A DNA stretch of 16,533 nucleotides, from UHGV virus genome UHGV-1601610; one strand, written 5' to 3'. The DNA comes from a virus. The notes beneath the pieces are model-generated. The model searched no databases. It saw only the letters and a program-made list of their open reading frames with translations, and was not told where the DNA came from. The first letter of the stretch is position 1, and the number at the start of each line of letters is the position of its first letter. Positions 1 through 11,679 of this stretch are shown piece by piece. Made by a program: the position numbers and the translations under genes.

Positions 1-1087
1 GGTCCTGCACGAACGTCAGCGTCTGCCCGTTCCATACCGGCATACAGCGCATCGCAGAGCAGAAATCACTGAGCACATCCCACGCCTTGCGCTGTGTGGT
101 CAGGTACGCATTACAGGTGATGCGCGGCTCCGTGCCGCCAAAGCCGTCCGGCACTGACTGGTCGCAGTACTGGCCGATGACATACAGCGCCCATTTGTCC
201 ACATCCGCCGCACCAAGACGTTTCCCCATGCCGTAGCGTGGATGGGTCAGCATATCCCACAGACACCAGGCCATGTTATTGCTGTATGCTGGCTTAAACG
301 TTCCGTCCCAGATACCGCTGTATTGCCGAGTCTGCGGGTTATAGTTCGACGGCACCTGCAGAATACGCCCGCGCAGATGATAATTACGGCTCACCTGCTG
401 GCTGCCGAACTGCTCCGAATCCACCTGTACGCCGACCAGTGCCGTGTTCGGGTAGCACTGTTTCACATCGATGATTTCGGTGTATGACGACCAGAGCGTT
501 TTGTTCTGCAGCTGGTCTGTGGTGCTGTCCGGCGTCATCCTGCGCATCCGGATATTAAACGGGCGCGGCGGCAGGTTATCCACCACCACCGAGGCCAGAT
601 ACTGCGAGGTGGTTTTGCCCTTAATGGTGATGTCTTTTTCCGTCACCCAGCCACCGTTACGCTGTATCTGAACCAGCAGGCGGACTTCCGATGGATTCCT
701 GTCCCCCTTTGAGGTGGTTTCCACCAGTGCCTGCACACCGAAGGTAAAGCGCAGACGGTCGATGTTTGCCGACGTGATGGTGCGGGTGATCGGCGTGTCA
801 TATTTCACTTCCGTACCCAGCACCGTCTCGGAGCCGGAGGATTCAAATCCCTCCGGCGGTGTCTGCTCCTGCTCACCTGCCCGGAACACCACCGTGACGC
901 CGGAGATGTTGGTATTCCCCTCAGTGTCCAGCACTGGCGTACTGTTCAGCAGCACGCTTTTTAATCCATCCACCGGACCTTCAATCGGCCCTTCGCTGAT
1001 GGCATCGATCACACTCAGCAACTGCGTGGACTTCAGGTTGTCCTTCGCTTCGCGCGGAGTATGCCCCTTACTGCTGCCTTTACCCAT
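1..1087 (-). CDS. J: Tail tip / host-specificity protein J (central tail fibre), 5' part only; gene continues beyond the left window edge
   Basis: Reverse complement of 1041-1087 reads ATG GGT AAA GGC AGC AGT AAG GGG CAT ACT CCG CGC GAA GCG AAG GA = MGKGSSKGHTPREAKD, the N-terminus I recall for lambda gpJ. GGAG lies 8 nt upstream of the ATG at 1087. Not in the ORF track, presumably because it has no in-window stop. I did not verify the frame base by base down to position 1. Confidence 0.85.
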   Translation of the reverse strand, partial: MGKGSSKGHTPREAKDNLKSTQLLSVIDAISEGPIEGPVDGLKSVLLNSTPVLDTEGNTNISGVTVVFRAGEQEQTPPEGFESSGSETVLGTEVKYDTPITRTITSANIDRLRFTFGVQALVETTSKGDRNPSEVRLLVQIQRNGGWVTEKDITIKGKTTSQYLASVVVDNLPPRPFNIRMRRMTPDSTTDQLQNKTLWSSYTEIIDVKQCYPNTALVGVQVDSEQFGSQQVSRNYHLRGRILQVPSNYNPQTRQYSGIWDGTFKPAYSNNMAWCLWDMLTHPRYGMGKRLGAADVDKWALYVIGQYCDQSVPDGFGGTEPRITCNAYLTTQRKAWDVLSDFCSAMRCMPVWNGQTLTFVQD

Positions 1088-1109
1088 TCCTAACGCTCCA
1101 TAAACGACA

Positions 1110-1129
1110 AAACCGCCCGGAGGCGGTTT
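1110..1129 (-). other. Perfect 8-bp stem / 4-nt loop hairpin in the I-J spacer (AAACCGCC cgga GGCGGTTT), adjacent to a 10-bp palindrome AAAACGTTTT at 1131-1140
   Basis: Read directly from the sequence; on the minus strand the stem is followed by UUUUGUCGUUUAUGG and then the J start. Function unknown (attenuator or RNA processing/stability element). Confidence 0.4.
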
Positions 1130-1147
1130 CACATAAAACGTTTTTCA

Positions 1148-1795
1148 TCAGCGACCAATCACTACAACCTGACCACCATCCCCTTCGTCTGCCGTGCTGA
1201 TCTCCTGAGAGACCACCCGCGACCCCACGCGCATTTCACCGTACAGAACGGGCAGAACATTGCCCTGGGCAACCATGTTATCCAGTGAGGAGAAATAGGT
1301 GTTCTGTTTGCCGTTATCTGTACTTGCTGCCGTGGGCGTCCTGGCTTTCGGTGCCAGCATCTGCGCCACTCCGCCCAGGATCATACTGGCCCCTGCCGCA
1401 TACATGCCCGATACAGCCGCGGCACCCAGCCAGCCCACAGGGTTCCACCATGCCACCGCAATCAGCGCCGCCCCCAGCACCACCTGAAACACACCGCCAC
1501 TTTTAGCTCCCGCCAGACGCGGCACGATGTGGATCACGGCACCATTTGCCAGCGGCTCATTAAGACGGGCAGACAATTCGGTTTCACCTGCATCACGCCC
1601 GGCAATGCGTACCTGGTACCAGCCGTCGCTCAGTTTCTGACGAAATGCCGGGATCTGCATGGCCAGCGCCCGGATGGCTTCGGACCCCGTTTTCACTCGA
1701 AGGTCGATGCGGCGGCCAAATCGTTGTAAATCCCCGTAAAGGCAGATGCGTGCCATGCCCGGTGACGCCAGAGGGAGTGTGTGCGTCGCTGCCAT
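1148..1795 (-). CDS. I: Tail tip assembly protein I (lambda gpI-like)
   Basis: 215-aa ORF, ATG at 1793-1795 verified. N-terminus MAATHTLPLASPGMARICLYGDLQRFGRR and C-terminus ...NTYFSSLDNMVAQGNVLPVLYGEMRVGSRVVSQEISTADEGDGGQVVVIGR match my recollection of lambda gpI. Sits between K and J. Confidence 0.85.
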   Translation of the reverse strand: MAATHTLPLASPGMARICLYGDLQRFGRRIDLRVKTGSEAIRALAMQIPAFRQKLSDGWYQVRIAGRDAGETELSARLNEPLANGAVIHIVPRLAGAKSGGVFQVVLGAALIAVAWWNPVGWLGAAAVSGMYAAGASMILGGVAQMLAPKARTPTAASTDNGKQNTYFSSLDNMVAQGNVLPVLYGEMRVGSRVVSQEISTADEGDGGQVVVIGR

Positions 1796-9647: not shown

Positions 9648-9666
9648 CAGCCCCGTTCAGGGGCTG
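9648..9666 (-). other. Perfect 7-bp GC-rich hairpin (CAGCCCC ugaac GGGGCUG) just upstream of the DUF2190 gene SD
   Basis: Read directly from the sequence; no U-tract follows. It is the second of two hairpins in the capsid-DUF2190 spacer. Confidence 0.45.
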
Positions 9667-9676
9667 ATTTCAGGTA

Positions 9677-9697
9677 CAAAAAAAGCCCTTACGGGCC
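9677..9697 (-). terminator. Weak intrinsic-terminator-like element after the capsid gene (GGCCC guaa GGGCU + U-run)
   Basis: Minus-strand 4-5 bp GC stem with a GNRA-type loop, followed by about 6 U. Lies 24 nt after the capsid stop. The short stem makes this marginal. Confidence 0.35.
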
Positions 9698-9720
9698 ATC
9701 AGAGTTGTTGTCTGCGACGT

Positions 9721-11679
9721 TTACGCCGTACATTTCACCAGGCCGCGGTGATCAACTGGCGCAACACCAGCGTCAATACGCACTTTCGTTGTCACGCCAT
9801 CCACACTGAAGCCCTCCATCTGATCAATATATGGCGTATCCACACCGTTGAGATAAGCCACTTCAATCGTATCGGAGCCTTTGGACGCAGCCAGGTAGAA
9901 GGTGGTCTGGCTGTTATCATCAAGACGAGGCTCTGCAATAACGGTCGCAAAATCTTTCACCGGGTTAATAATACCGGCGTTAATGTCAGCCCCCTTGACA
10001 CTTGAGGAGCGAATGACCTGGTTAGCAACAGACTCCATCGCCGTCGGTACCAGTACGAACGCAGGACGAATATTCAGATGACGCTCACCCTCTTTCTGAA
10101 CGCGCATCAACTGGCGGGCTTTATCCAGCGATGCCACGTCCATTGCCGCGCTCTCCAGTACGTTTGCATGTTTCGCTTTATCGAACAGACTTACATTATC
10201 TGTGGAGATTTTCGGGTTAGACGTCAGAATGGCATAAACCAGATCGGCAATAGTGGATTTCGCCGCACGGCCCAGCTTCATCGGGACATCGGTCAGCATA
10301 TTCAGATCATCATTGATAATGGCCTGACGGGTGATACTGAACAGCTCGCCATAGGTCGCCAGTGCAATAGTGGCCTGTTTATCTCCGGTGGTGACGTATT
10401 TATATTCTGCCCCTTCACGCACCTGACGCAGAGCACTGAAGCCCCCCATACCCACACGATGGGCAATTTTAAAATCAGACAACTGACCTTTCCGCGTCCA
10501 CTGTTCATAGGTTTCAGGGGCATCTTCCCAGCCCTGCAGAATGGCTTTGTTCGCAACATCCAGCAGAATATTACCGAAGTCAGACGTACTGTGTGTGAAC
10601 GCCGCACCGACCATCTGCATCGGGTTATAACTGGAAACACCAATACCACGTTCAGTCAGTGACATACGGGCATATTCACGCAGGGTCATCCCGTTGTAGA
10701 CATTATCACGTTCAGTTTTTTCAAACCCGGCGCGCGCCATCAGCGCCTGGCGGATCCCGTCCCCCACAAAATTACCGTTACCGGCATAAATATGAGCCGG
10801 GGTATTTTTATTGGATGGCGTGGACTCGCGCCCCATCTCGTTCAACAGCTTTTCGCGGGCCTGCTCCAGCGAACATTCAGGATCGGCAAGACACTGAGCC
10901 TGCAACGACTGATAACGCCCGCCAAACATGGCAAACAGATCATTAATACCGTTTACACGCGCTTTTTGCTCTGCCAGGACCTGCGCACGGATGCTGTTTT
11001 CATCCACCACGGGTGCTGCTGCCTGCACTGGCGTCCGGGAGGCTGCAGGTCCATCATCCTGTACGCGTGGAGCACTGTTGCGTGGCGGAGTAATCATATT
11101 TCGAATGGATTCCGGCATCTTTTTAAATTCCTCTGTACGTTTTGACTGAATACATGCCATTGCCTTAACGGCTGGTGTCACCTGATCAGCAAATCCCTGT
11201 GCCAGACATTCGGCACCGGACATCCAGGTCTCATCCGCCAGCATGGCAGCAATTTCATCGGTGGTTTTCCCGGTTTTCTGTGCATAAGCGGGTAACAGAA
11301 CCGCCTCAACTTTATCGAGCAGGTCGGCATAGGTGCGCATGTCCTCCGCATCACCGCCCGTAAAGCCAAATGGTTTATGAATCATCATGAAGGAGTTTTC
11401 CGGCATAATGACCGGGTTTCCCACCATCGCAATGACCGACGCCATTGACGCCGCCACACCGTCGACATAAACGGTAATGGACGCACCATGTGTTTTCAGT
11501 GCATTAAAAATGGCGATGCCTTCAAAGACATCGCCACCCGGTGAATTAATATGGAGATTAATGTGGGTGATATCGCCCAGTGCATTCAGATCACTGATAA
11601 ACTGCTTCGCCGTAACACCCCAGAAACCAATCTCGTCATAAATATAAATATCCGCGTCACTCTGGTGACCTGCCTGCAT
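9721..11679 (-). CDS. Tripartite prohead protease (ClpP-like) - scaffold-like linker - major capsid protein (HK97 fold) fusion
   Basis: One uninterrupted frame (ORF track 9721-11940). The N-terminal part has the ClpP signature HINSPGGDVFEGIAIFNALK ... AASMASVIAMVG ... MMIHKP (compare E. coli ClpP YINSPGG ... AASMGAFLL ... VMIHQP). The middle is A/Q/E-rich and the C-terminal ~380 aa resembles HK97-fold capsid proteins. Start is uncertain: the first ATG downstream of the portal stop is 11677-11679 (MQAGHQSD...) with poor SD; an upstream start overlapping the portal gene is possible. Confidence 0.8.
   Translation of the reverse strand: MQAGHQSDADIYIYDEIGFWGVTAKQFISDLNALGDITHINLHINSPGGDVFEGIAIFNALKTHGASITVYVDGVAASMASVIAMVGNPVIMPENSFMMIHKPFGFTGGDAEDMRTYADLLDKVEAVLLPAYAQKTGKTTDEIAAMLADETWMSGAECLAQGFADQVTPAVKAMACIQSKRTEEFKKMPESIRNMITPPRNSAPRVQDDGPAASRTPVQAAAPVVDENSIRAQVLAEQKARVNGINDLFAMFGGRYQSLQAQCLADPECSLEQAREKLLNEMGRESTPSNKNTPAHIYAGNGNFVGDGIRQALMARAGFEKTERDNVYNGMTLREYARMSLTERGIGVSSYNPMQMVGAAFTHSTSDFGNILLDVANKAILQGWEDAPETYEQWTRKGQLSDFKIAHRVGMGGFSALRQVREGAEYKYVTTGDKQATIALATYGELFSITRQAIINDDLNMLTDVPMKLGRAAKSTIADLVYAILTSNPKISTDNVSLFDKAKHANVLESAAMDVASLDKARQLMRVQKEGERHLNIRPAFVLVPTAMESVANQVIRSSSVKGADINAGIINPVKDFATVIAEPRLDDNSQTTFYLAASKGSDTIEVAYLNGVDTPYIDQMEGFSVDGVTTKVRIDAGVAPVDHRGLVKCTA

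What the first reader, a model, noticed from the sequence alone, without database searches (positions are those of the whole stretch)
1..11679. Mosaic virion module: lambda-like tail tip joined to a Gifsy-2/HK97-type head
J (N-terminus read directly as MGKGSSKGHTPREAKD), I, K and L look nearly identical to lambda from memory. M, H, V, U and Z are recognisably lambda-like but clearly diverged. The head genes (tripartite capsid, DUF2190, FII-like) are of a different lineage from lambda C/Nu3/D/E/FI. This points to recombination joints within the tail operon, and the lambda-like J suggests a lambda-like receptor-binding apparatus, although the receptor-binding C-terminus of J is outside the window.
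Basis: partly seen in the sequence, partly recalled or inferred. Interest (0 to 1): 0.4.

Follow-up and report, generated by a model that had tools for sequence, protein, structure and literature searches.

The report
Known mosaic lambdoid prophage virion operon
This is the ordinary head-and-tail gene block of a very common E. coli lambda-like prophage (the cdtI/mEp460/Tritos type), whose last four tail-tip genes are nearly identical to phage lambda's because such phages swap gene blocks; the pattern is real but already well known.

Summary
All genes lie on the minus strand: cos, terminase, portal, a Gifsy-2-type ClpP-scaffold-capsid fusion gene, cement protein, connector, then lambda-order tail genes Z-U-V-G-T-H-M-L-K-I-J. 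J is cut at codon 362.

Amino-acid identity to lambda falls into three groups:
- **Near-identical:** J N-terminus 99.4%, K 96%, L 93%. I is 78% because its centre is diverged.
- **Diverged:** M, V, U and Z 49-55%; H, G and T 25-38%.
- **Remote or absent:** terminase large subunit and portal 22-24%; the other head genes show no match.

The best single breakpoint is window 3080, about codon 21 of L, where nucleotide identity rises from 60% to 93%. A diverged island lies inside I (1330-1650). Four-fold degenerate sites are 83-90% identical in L, K and J against 20-59% upstream, so this is shared ancestry, not protein constraint.

The whole module is collinear with Gifsy-2 (40-76% amino-acid identity). 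It is about 96-98% identical in nucleotides to phages cdtI, Tritos and mEp460, and 1,792 of 5,426 complete E. coli genomes hold at least 80% of it.

The same L-K-I-J block sits behind at least four different tail-shaft lineages. In the closest relatives the J C-terminus is not lambda-like, so a lambda-like receptor is not supported.

Verdict: already known, low interest.

The parts
16230..16241 (-). Putative cos cohesive-end sequence GGGCGGGAGCGT (lambda has GGGCGGCGACCT).
   Evidence: The phage Tritos record starts exactly here with the same 12 bases, and the cdtI record starts aligning at the same window position. PMC12315714 describes similar lambda-like cos sites in relatives with Gifsy-2-type heads. 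The role as cos is inferred.
15518..16057 (-). Terminase small subunit (DUF1441 family).
   Evidence: PF07278, E = 1.7e-44. PHROG 141 'terminase small subunit'. 40% amino-acid identity to the Gifsy-2 small subunit and no BLASTP match to lambda Nu1.
13410..15509 (-). Terminase large subunit (gpA family).
   Evidence: GpA_ATPase plus GpA_nuclease domains. 72.5% identical to Gifsy-2 and 24% to lambda A.
13201..13419 (-). Head-tail adaptor in the position of lambda W.
   Evidence: PHROG 118 'head-tail adaptor'. 48.5% identical to the Gifsy-2 W-position protein.
11693..13273 (-). Portal protein (lambda-family portal). The start is probably 13201, as called in relatives.
   Evidence: PF05136, E = 7e-82. 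64% identical to Gifsy-2 and 22.5% to lambda B. Relatives are called at 502 aa.
9721..11940 (-). Tripartite ClpP protease - scaffold - major capsid protein fusion gene (Gifsy-2 type). Relatives aa, which puts the start near 11748.
   Evidence: CLP_protease at residues 95-255 and Phage_capsid_4 at 441-736. PDB hits only to ClpP. 70% identical to Gifsy-2 STM1034.3n. RefSeq names it 'ClpP-like prohead protease/major capsid protein fusion protein'.
9311..9679 (-). Capsid cement/decoration protein (former DUF2190). Relatives aa.
   Evidence: PF09956 Phage_cement_2, E = 4e-20. PHROG 122 'head decoration'. 61% identical to Gifsy-2 STM1034.
9043..9318 (-). Head-completion/connector protein in the position of lambda FII (Pfam 'Gifsy-2' family).
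   Evidence: PF13856, E = 1.8e-17; weak PF05354 hit, E = 0.0018. PDB 2PP6, Gifsy-2 STM1035, E = 1e-19.
8453..9031 (-). Tail protein Z.
   Evidence: PF06763. 49% identical to lambda Z and 42% to Gifsy-2.
8055..8468 (-). Tail terminator U.
   Evidence: PF06141. 54% identical to lambda U.
7301..8119 (-). Major tail tube protein V with a C-terminal Big_2 domain. Relatives aa.
   Evidence: PF16461 plus PF02368. 55% identical to lambda V and 69% to Gifsy-2.
6516..7282 (-). Tail assembly chaperones G and T. The T frame is -1 relative to G and is presumably reached by frameshifting.
   Evidence: PF06894 and PF06223. The -1 frame is open across the end of G, which ends ...CCG GAA AAG TCC TGA. The frameshift is inferred by analogy with lambda G/GT.
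3479..6544 (-). Tape measure protein H (1,021 aa).
   Evidence: TMP_2, TMP_4 and Tape_meas_lam_C domains. 64% identical to Gifsy-2 H and 25% to lambda H. The exact protein is listed in 9,049 blocks of the assembly index.
3150..3479 (-). Tail tip protein M, the last gene on the diverged side of the joint.
   Evidence: PF05939. 55% amino-acid and 59.7% nucleotide identity to lambda.
3080..3140 (-). Mosaic joint: the first 20 codons or so of L, with high identity to lambda beginning at 3080.
   Evidence: Change-point at window 3080 / lambda 13489. Alignment shown. Five lineages converge at the same place.
2442..3140 (-). Tail tip hub protein L.
   Evidence: PF05100. 93% identical to lambda L. PDB 8IYK chain L, E = 7e-148.
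1693..2436 (-). Tail tip assembly protein K, full length at 247 aa (JAB/MPN plus NlpC/P60 domains).
   Evidence: PF14464 at residues 4-98 and PF00877 at 111-224. 96% identical to the annotated lambda K, and 234 of 247 identical to the K ORF of resequenced lambda LC730321.1.
1148..1795 (-). Tail tip protein I. Its ends are lambda-like and its central cassette (window 1330-1650, roughly residues 49-155) is diverged.
   Evidence: PF06805. 78% identical overall. The central block is 63.8% identical in nucleotides with 24 gap columns. The window-type allele is the common one in phages.
1..1087 (-). N-terminal 362 codons of the central tail fibre / host specificity protein J, cut by the window edge.
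   Evidence: Translation. 99.4% amino-acid and 97.4% nucleotide identity to lambda J. FNIII-A_GpJ domain.

Best explanation
The window is the late (virion structural) operon of a lambdoid siphovirus prophage of the cdtI / mEp460 / Tritos type. It is read on the minus strand from cos through the terminase, portal, a Gifsy-2-type fused protease-scaffold-capsid gene, cement protein and connector. The lambda-order tail genes follow, as far as the start of J.

Its relation to phage lambda is mosaic. From about codon 21 of L through K, the two ends of I and at least J residues 1-362, it shares recent common ancestry with lambda. Everything upstream (M back to the terminase) belongs to a different, Gifsy-2-related lineage.

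The pattern is best explained by exchange of the L-K-I-J tail-tip block among co-infecting or resident lambdoid (pro)phages, whether by homologous or illegitimate recombination. Only recombinants that keep the interacting hub proteins (L, I, J) together would survive. The block functions as in lambda: an M ring sits on an L/J hub, plugged by I, with K as an assembly factor. Receptor choice is set by a separate, independently swapped C-terminal module of J that lies outside the window.

Shown here: gene identities, the identity steps and the distribution of the segments. Inferred: the recombination mechanism, the direction of transfer and the function of each protein.
For: - **Per-gene identities to lambda and Gifsy-2** are.
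- **A sharp nucleotide-identity step** lies at window 3080, from 59.6% to 93.5% with a log-likelihood gain of 85.
- **Four-fold degenerate site identity to lambda** is L 82.9%, K 88.0% and J 90.4%, against 20-59% for A, B, Z, U, V, G, T, H and M. L, K, I and J of both the window and lambda are equidistant from Gifsy-2 (63-77% amino-acid identity), while H is 64% (window to Gifsy-2) against 26% (lambda to Gifsy-2).
- **The two sides of the joint have different distributions.** The segment 1-3080 is at least 90% identical in 115 phage records. The segment 3141-11940 reaches that level in only 21.
- **The same L-K-I-J block recurs behind unrelated shafts.** At 91-99% amino-acid identity it sits behind H and M proteins only 29-47% identical to the window's in phages vB_EcoS-640R1, PhiR49_2 and Salmonella phage SPF_0923. 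All lineages converge at the same point in L.
- **The arrangement is found in isolated phages and in genomes.** Near-identical whole modules occur in the isolated phages cdtI, Tritos, mEp460 and Ayreon, and at least 80% of the window is present in 1,792 of 5,426 complete E. coli genomes.
- **The literature already describes the combination.** PMC12315714 reports lambdoid phages with Gifsy-2-like fused protease/coat heads and lambda-like tails. PMC6646904 lists cdtI, mEp460 and Ayreon among lambda's close relatives and shows that the J specificity region recombines independently.
- **Structural roles** of gpM, gpL, gpI and gpJ come from PMC11101478 and from PDB 8IYK and related entries.
Against: - No direct evidence of the recombination event or its direction: neither parent is identifiable, and the cassette occurs with at least four upstream lineages.
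- The identity within the shared block is not uniform: 87% at 3080-2910, 95% at 2909-1651 and 97% in J. Several exchanges of different ages are therefore needed rather than one.
- The diverged island inside I requires either a second event or a lambda-specific replacement.
- The function of every protein is inferred from homology.
- The exact source genome was not found, so it is unknown whether this copy is an inducible prophage.
Confidence: 0.9

Rival explanations
1. There was no exchange. L, K, I and J are simply under much stronger purifying selection than the other tail genes, so they look near-identical while the rest diverged from a common lambda-like ancestor.
For: Tail-tip hub proteins are generally well conserved. 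L, K, I and J are also the best-conserved tail genes between lambda and Gifsy-2, at 61-77%.
Against: Four-fold degenerate sites, which are largely free of protein-level constraint, are 83-90% identical in L, K and J but 20-59% upstream. The change is abrupt, within about 60 nt inside one gene. The same block is attached to four different upstream lineages.
Confidence: 0.03
2. The junction is an assembly or binning chimera between a lambda-like prophage and a Gifsy-2-like prophage in the source genome.
For: E. coli genomes carry a median of 5 places matching this window, which is a classic cause of mis-assembly.
Against: The same joint is present in independently sequenced, isolated phages (cdtI, Tritos, mEp460, Ayreon, HannyBb) and in 1,792 complete genomes. 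All family members show the same identity profile to lambda.
Confidence: 0.01
3. Directional reading, implicit in the finding: a cdtI/Gifsy-2-type phage acquired its tail tip from lambda itself. It therefore uses lambda's receptor-binding apparatus (LamB).
For: The J N-terminus is 99.4% identical to lambda's. The whole hub (L, the I C-terminus and the J hub domains) is lambda-like.
Against: The cassette is shared by at least four upstream lineages, and lambda carries the minority I-centre allele, so lambda need not be the donor. In the closest relatives (99.2-99.7% identical) the last 190 residues of J are only about 50% identical to lambda's. They fall into two alleles that are also about 50% identical to each other. 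PMC6646904 shows that this region assorts independently.
Confidence: 0.12

Closest known systems
Enterobacteria phage cdtI (NC_009514 / AB285204), Escherichia phages Tritos, mEp460 and Ayreon, and Qin-locus-type E. coli prophages
   Same: The whole window aligns at about 96-98% nucleotide identity with the same gene order, the same cos sequence and the same joints relative to lambda. The closest genome copy, at 99.7%, lies among genes annotated as in the K-12 Qin prophage (essQ, rrrQ, rzpQ, cspI, pinQ, tfaQ) in strain MSB1_9D.
   Different: Differences are small and cluster in the tail tip. Of 51 differences from MSB1_9D, 42 lie in window 1-2808. The J C-terminus and side-fibre genes vary among these relatives. 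The exact source genome was not found.
Salmonella phage Gifsy-2 (NC_010393)
   Same: All 18 virion genes are collinear. Both have the fused ClpP-scaffold-capsid gene (70% amino-acid identity), a cement protein (61%), the STM1035-family connector (45%; PDB 2PP6) and H at 64%.
   Different: Amino-acid identity is only 40-76% and is fairly uniform, with no high-identity block. Gifsy-2 carries an ail/lom-like gene and sodC inserted between M and L, which is where the window has its joint with lambda. The window has only 9 nt between M and L.
Phage lambda (NC_001416)
   Same: The tail gene order Z-U-V-G-T-H-M-L-K-I-J is the same. L, K and the J N-terminus are 93-99% identical in amino acids, the cos sequence is similar, and the terminase and portal belong to the gpA and lambda-portal families. 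L matches the solved lambda tail-tip structures 8IYK and 8XCG.
   Different: The window has no counterparts of C, Nu3, D, E or FI. H is 1,021 aa against 853 aa and only 25% identical. M, V, U and Z are 49-55% identical. The centre of I is diverged.
Lambdoid phages LLS and mEp213, as described in PMC12315714
   Same: The paper describes them as having head proteins like Gifsy-2, with fused prohead protease and coat genes. [quoted passage not shown] This is the combination the finding reports.
   Different: These genomes were not compared directly with the window here.

Membership tests
cdtI / mEp460 / Tritos-type lambdoid virion module | Collinear nucleotide similarity of 95% or more across the terminase-to-J region. 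| tested here: met
   95-98% identity over 92-98% of the window to cdtI, Tritos, mEp460 and Ayreon. 99.7% to an E. coli MSB1_9D prophage.
Gifsy-2-type head (tripartite capsid gene) | A single ORF with an N-terminal ClpP-like protease, a central domain of about 200 aa and a C-terminal major capsid domain. | tested here: met
   CLP_protease at residues 95-255 and Phage_capsid_4 at 441-736 in one ORF. 70% amino-acid identity over 669 aa to the Gifsy-2 gene.
Gifsy-2-type head (tripartite capsid gene) | Self-processing, so that only the C-terminal capsid domain remains in mature heads, which are decorated by the downstream cement protein. | not testable with these tools
   This needs virion proteomics or cryo-EM. 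Only the presence of a downstream PF09956 cement gene is shown.
HK97-type head (sequence families of HK97 gp4 and gp5) | Capsid protein in Pfam PF05065 and prohead protease of the S78/U35 type. | tested here: not met
   The Pfam scan at E <= 0.01 returned PF25209 and PF10124 for the capsid domain and ClpP (PF00574) for the protease. Neither PF05065 nor S78 was hit. Only the generic HK97 fold can be assumed.
Lambda-type tail tip complex (M, L, K, I, J) | All five genes present in lambda order, with the corresponding Pfam families. | tested here: met
   PF05939, PF05100, PF14464 plus PF00877, PF06805 and PF24801. L matches PDB 8IYK chain L with E = 7e-148.
Lambda-type tail tip complex (M, L, K, I, J) | Recent common ancestry with lambda's own genes (near-identity at synonymous sites). 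| tested here: met
   Met for L, K, the ends of I and J(1-362), with four-fold-site identity of 83-90%. Not met for M (47%) or the centre of I.
LamB-dependent (lambda-specificity) J proteins | A C-terminal specificity region (lambda J residues 960-1132 or so) close to lambda's. | not testable with these tools
   The region lies outside the window and the source contig was not found. In the closest relatives it is about 50% identical to lambda's, in two alleles.
Conserved G/GT tail-chaperone frameshift | T frame at -1 relative to G, with a slippery site near the end of G. | tested here: inconclusive
   The T frame is -1 and open across the end of G. The sequence there is CCG GAA AAG, not lambda's canonical G GGA AAG.

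The most novel reading that the evidence does not exclude
The block from about codon 21 of L through K, I and J (to roughly residue 950) behaves as a discrete, freely reassorting tail-tip cassette. Its upstream boundary is fixed, shared by at least five tail-shaft lineages: lambda, the cdtI type, the 640R1/PhiR49_2 type, SPF_0923 and, at lower identity, Gifsy-2. That would imply a recombination hot spot at the M|L boundary, or a tight limit on where the M-ring/L-hub interface can be swapped. 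Gifsy-2 carries its morons at this same site. This would be a quantitative refinement of the known modular theory of lambdoid phage evolution, not a new kind of system.
Probability: 0.5. Interest if true: 0.2.

Novelty: already known. Interest (0 to 1): 0.1.

Why it matters
It matters little beyond correct annotation. The window is a textbook example of lambdoid phage mosaicism, in a prophage family present in about a third of complete E. coli genomes.

The practical lessons are these:
- A lambda-like J N-terminus says nothing about receptor use, because the specificity module at the J C-terminus assorts independently.
- The L-K-I-J hub genes are a shared cassette, so they are poor markers of phage lineage.
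- The head-to-M part is the lineage-informative part of the module.

Tried and rejected
1. **Looking for the source genome, to read the J C-terminus.**
   - Whole-window megablast against 5,426 complete E. coli genomes gave 99.7% at best.
   - An exact-protein look-up of H found it listed in 9,049 index blocks. None of the six places fetched was identical to the window at the DNA level.
   - An exact-protein look-up of the rarer L variant found six contigs, the best 99.3% identical.
   - An exact 62-mer scan of GTDB representative genomes found one hit, Shigella flexneri SFBU0723. It is only 95.4% identical with 18 gap openings, so it is not the source.
2. **Hypothesis that the diverged centre of I co-varies with the tape measure H.** In lambda, gpI contacts the gpH C-terminus (PMC11101478). 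This was rejected. The window-type I allele (94-98% amino-acid identity) occurs with H proteins only 29-34% identical overall, and about 50-53% identical over the last 120 residues.
3. **Chi-site enrichment**, prompted by PMC12315714. There are no Chi sites in the window against 0.93 expected, so nothing to report.
4. **Papers that could not be read.** Effantin et al. 2010 (the Gifsy-2 capsid) and Asakura et al. 2007 (cdtI) are not held in the library. Statements about Gifsy-2 capsid processing therefore rest on the citation in PMC12315714 and on my own knowledge.
5. **Literature search for a report of the lambda K start problem** found nothing.

Full report
**What is in the window**

All real genes are on the minus strand. 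Reading 5' to 3' on that strand, the features are:
- a putative cos site, GGGCGGGAGCGT, at 16241-16230. The phage Tritos record begins with exactly these bases, and lambda has GGGCGGCGACCT;
- a DUF1441-type small terminase (15518-16057);
- a gpA-family large terminase (13410-15509);
- a W-position adaptor (13201-13419);
- a lambda-family portal (11693-13273);
- one long ORF that fuses a ClpP protease domain, a central region and a capsid domain (9721-11940);
- a cement/decoration protein, the former DUF2190 (9311-9679);
- a connector of Pfam family 'Gifsy-2' in the position of lambda FII (9043-9318);
- then Z, U, V, G, T, H, M, L, K and I, and the first 362 codons of J.

**Checking the observation against lambda**

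I fetched lambda NC_001416 and compared gene by gene.

| Gene | Amino-acid identity to lambda |
|---|---|
| J(1-362) | 99.4% |
| K | 96.0% |
| L | 93.1% |
| I | 78.0% |
| M | 54.6% |
| V | 54.9% |
| U | 54.3% |
| Z | 49.2% |
| T | 37.7% |
| G | 31.8% |
| H | 25.4% |
| A (terminase large subunit) | 24.4% |
| B (portal) | 22.5% |

There was no BLASTP match for the small terminase, the W-like protein, the capsid fusion, the cement protein or the connector.

**Where the steps are**

At the nucleotide level, only window 1-3617 (87.5%) and a stretch spanning Z, U and V (66.5%) align with lambda at all. A global alignment with sliding windows and block statistics give the following.

| Window block | Content | Nucleotide identity to lambda |
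|---|---|---|
| 3700-3480 | 3' end of H | 60.5% |
| 3479-3150 | M | 59.7% |
| 3140-3081 | L codons 1-20 | 63.3% |
| 3080-2910 | L | 87.1% |
| 2909-1651 | L, K, start of I | 94.8% |
| 1650-1330 | centre of I | 63.8% (24 gap columns) |
| 1329-1088 | end of I and the I-J spacer | 91.3% |
| 1087-1 | J | 97.4% |

The maximum-likelihood single change-point between 3479 and 2500 is window 3080 = lambda 13489, where identity goes from 59.6% to 93.5% with a log-likelihood gain of 85. The alignment shows the change is abrupt.

**Exchange or constraint?**

I counted identity at four-fold degenerate sites of identically translated codons. Against lambda the values are L 82.9%, K 88.0%, J 90.4% and I 65.1%. 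For A, B, Z, U, V, G, T, H and M they are 20-59%. Protein-level constraint cannot produce near-identity at synonymous sites. L, K, the ends of I and J therefore share a much more recent ancestor with lambda than the rest of the operon does.

The comparison with Gifsy-2 agrees. The window and lambda are equally distant from Gifsy-2 in L, K, I and J (63-77% amino-acid identity). In H, however, the window is 64% identical to Gifsy-2 while lambda is 26%.

**What lineage the rest belongs to**

All 18 genes are collinear with Salmonella phage Gifsy-2 at 40-76% amino-acid identity:

| Gene | Identity to Gifsy-2 |
|---|---|
| Terminase large subunit | 73% |
| Portal | 64% |
| Capsid fusion | 70% |
| Cement protein | 61% |
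| Connector | 45% |
| V | 69% |
| H | 64% |
| M | 62% |

The connector matches the solved Gifsy-2 protein 2PP6. The description 'lambda tail tip joined to a Gifsy-2 head' is therefore incomplete. The whole module from the terminase through M is of the cdtI/Gifsy-2 kind, and Gifsy-2 has the same tail-tip genes too, only more diverged.

'HK97-type' holds only for the generic fold. Pfam places the capsid domain in PF25209 and Mu gpT, and the protease in ClpP. The HK97 families are not hit.

**How common it is**

- The window is 96-98% identical over 92-98% of its length to the isolated phages cdtI, Tritos, mEp460 and Ayreon, among others.
- 1,792 of 5,426 complete E. coli genomes hold a place covering at least 80% of it. 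The best is 99.7%, in strain MSB1_9D, where it lies among genes annotated as in the K-12 Qin prophage (essQ, rrrQ, rzpQ, cspI, pinQ, tfaQ).
- The exact H protein is listed in 9,049 blocks of the assembly index.
- All family members examined show the same identity profile to lambda. The joints are therefore ancestral to the family, not particular to this window.

**The tail-tip block as a shared cassette**

Window 1-3080 is at least 90% identical in 115 phage records. Window 3141-11940 reaches that level in only 21.

Three phages have quite different heads, tape measures and M proteins, with H and M only 29-47% identical in amino acids to the window's. They are vB_EcoS-640R1, PhiR49_2 and Salmonella phage SPF_0923. 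They still carry L, K, I and J at 91-99% amino-acid identity to the window.

A multiple alignment across the M|L junction shows that lambda, the window, these three phages and, at lower identity, Gifsy-2 all become alike at the same place. The first nine or so codons of L are conserved, codons 10-20 are variable, and similarity is high from window 3080 onward. Gifsy-2 carries its ail/lom-like gene and sodC between M and L. This is classical modular mosaicism with a joint at a gene boundary.

**The island in I**

The window-type centre of I is the common allele. It is found in 24 phage records at full length, including the three unrelated-shaft phages above. Lambda and its close kin carry the other allele.

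In lambda, gpI sits inside the hub. Its C-terminal strands thread through the gpJ hub domains, and its upper part faces the gpH C-terminus (PMC11101478). I therefore tested whether the I centre co-varies with H. It does not: the same I allele works with H proteins only about 30% identical overall and about 50% identical at the C-terminus.

**Receptor inference**

In the closest relatives, J matches lambda J at about 97% up to roughly residue 950 and then diverges. Over the last 190 residues the relatives fall into two alleles, a 1,131-aa type and a 1,137-aa type. Each is about 50% identical to lambda and to the other, and both occur among modules more than 99% identical to the window.

PMC6646904 analysed J homologues, including those of cdtI, mEp460 and Ayreon. 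It concluded that residues 960-1132 form an independently recombining specificity module. A lambda-like J N-terminus therefore does not predict a lambda-like receptor.

I could not find the window's source contig, so its own allele is unknown.

**Is it new?**

No. PMC12315714 explicitly describes lambdoid phages (LLS, mEp213) with Gifsy-2-like fused protease/coat heads, lambda-like tails and a lambda-like cos. RefSeq already names the fusion gene and the J, K and L homologues. Phages with this exact module have been in GenBank since the cdtI phage, published in 2007. The finding is a correct reading of a known, ordinary pattern.

**Side observations**

The most useful one concerns lambda, not the window. 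The window's K is a 247-aa ORF that starts 5 nt after L and has a complete JAB domain. The lambda reference annotates K as 199 aa after a 148-nt gap.

The reference lacks one nucleotide near 14265 relative to the window. It also lacks it relative to nearly every related phage record shown, which have 204 nt against 203. One of these is a resequenced lambda, LC730321.1 (48,503 bp). In it K is an intact 247-aa ORF starting at 14132, with 234 of 247 residues identical to the window's.

Other side observations are listed separately.

Noticed in passing
window 1693-2436 (-); L001 (lambda NC_001416) 14128-14330; L011 (LC730321.1): The lambda reference annotates K as 199 aa after a 148-nt gap. It lacks 1 nt near position 14265 (GAGGC-TATTTC). 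The window and nearly all related phage records shown have the extra base. So does a resequenced lambda of 48,503 bp, in which K is an intact 247-aa ORF starting 5 nt after L with a complete JAB domain. The reference K therefore looks N-terminally truncated, either by a 1-nt omission or by a stock-specific frameshift. No report of this was found in the searchable literature.
   Followed up: partly
window 16230-16241 (-): Putative cos cohesive end GGGCGGGAGCGT, three bases different from lambda's GGGCGGCGACCT. The Tritos record begins exactly here, and the cdtI record starts aligning at the same position.
   Followed up: partly
window 1-2808 versus 2809-16480: Of the 51 differences from the closest genome copy (MSB1_9D, 99.7%), 42 lie in the L-K-I-J region and only 9 in the 13.7 kb upstream. 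The same L and K/I positions also differ from two other relatives. The tail tip is therefore the polymorphic, patch-exchanged part even within the family. Phage mEp460_ev081, for example, is 99.8% identical over 3141-11940 but 96.9% over 1-3080.
   Followed up: partly
window 7263-7280 (-) and 9684-9697 (-): There are two terminator-like hairpins, each followed by a T run. One lies just after the major tail gene V (GCCCCGGTTATTCGGGGC TTTTTT). The other lies just after the capsid fusion gene (GGCCCGTAAGGGCT TTTTTTG). Both follow the most abundant structural genes. Overall the window has 34 terminator-like sites against 14.9 expected, and 3 promoter-like sites against 11.2 expected.
   Followed up: no
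window 6845-6870 (-): The T frame is -1 relative to G and is open across the end of G. The sequence there is CCG GAA AAG TCC TGA, not lambda's canonical slippery G GGA AAG. A GGGAAAT lies just after the G stop codon. The actual shift site is unclear.
   Followed up: no
window 16480-16533: Most close relatives stop matching about 54 nt before the right end of the window, upstream of cos. Only a few genomes (for example CUVM53 and B2) match to the end. This is another mosaic boundary, between the lysis/moron region and cos.
   Followed up: no
L003 18936-22001 (E. coli MSB1_9D); L007 13405-14480: Relatives show decay. In MSB1_9D the tape measure gene is annotated as a pseudogene with an internal stop. 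In L007, L is truncated (189 aa) and joined to a truncated lom-like gene, with K, I and J deleted. In the window, every complete gene (terminase small subunit through I) is an open reading frame, and J is open as far as the window runs.
   Followed up: no
L004 (Gifsy-2) 31238-32400: Gifsy-2 carries its ail/lom-like gene and sodC virulence morons between M and L. This is the same intergenic boundary where the window and at least four other lineages have their mosaic joint.
   Followed up: partly
L012 (Shigella flexneri SFBU0723, CP182557.1) 5320-8000: This is the only GTDB representative genome sharing a window-specific 62-mer in J. It aligns to the window at only 95.4% with 18 gap openings over 2.7 kb, which suggests an indel-rich assembly or a decayed prophage.
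   Followed up: no
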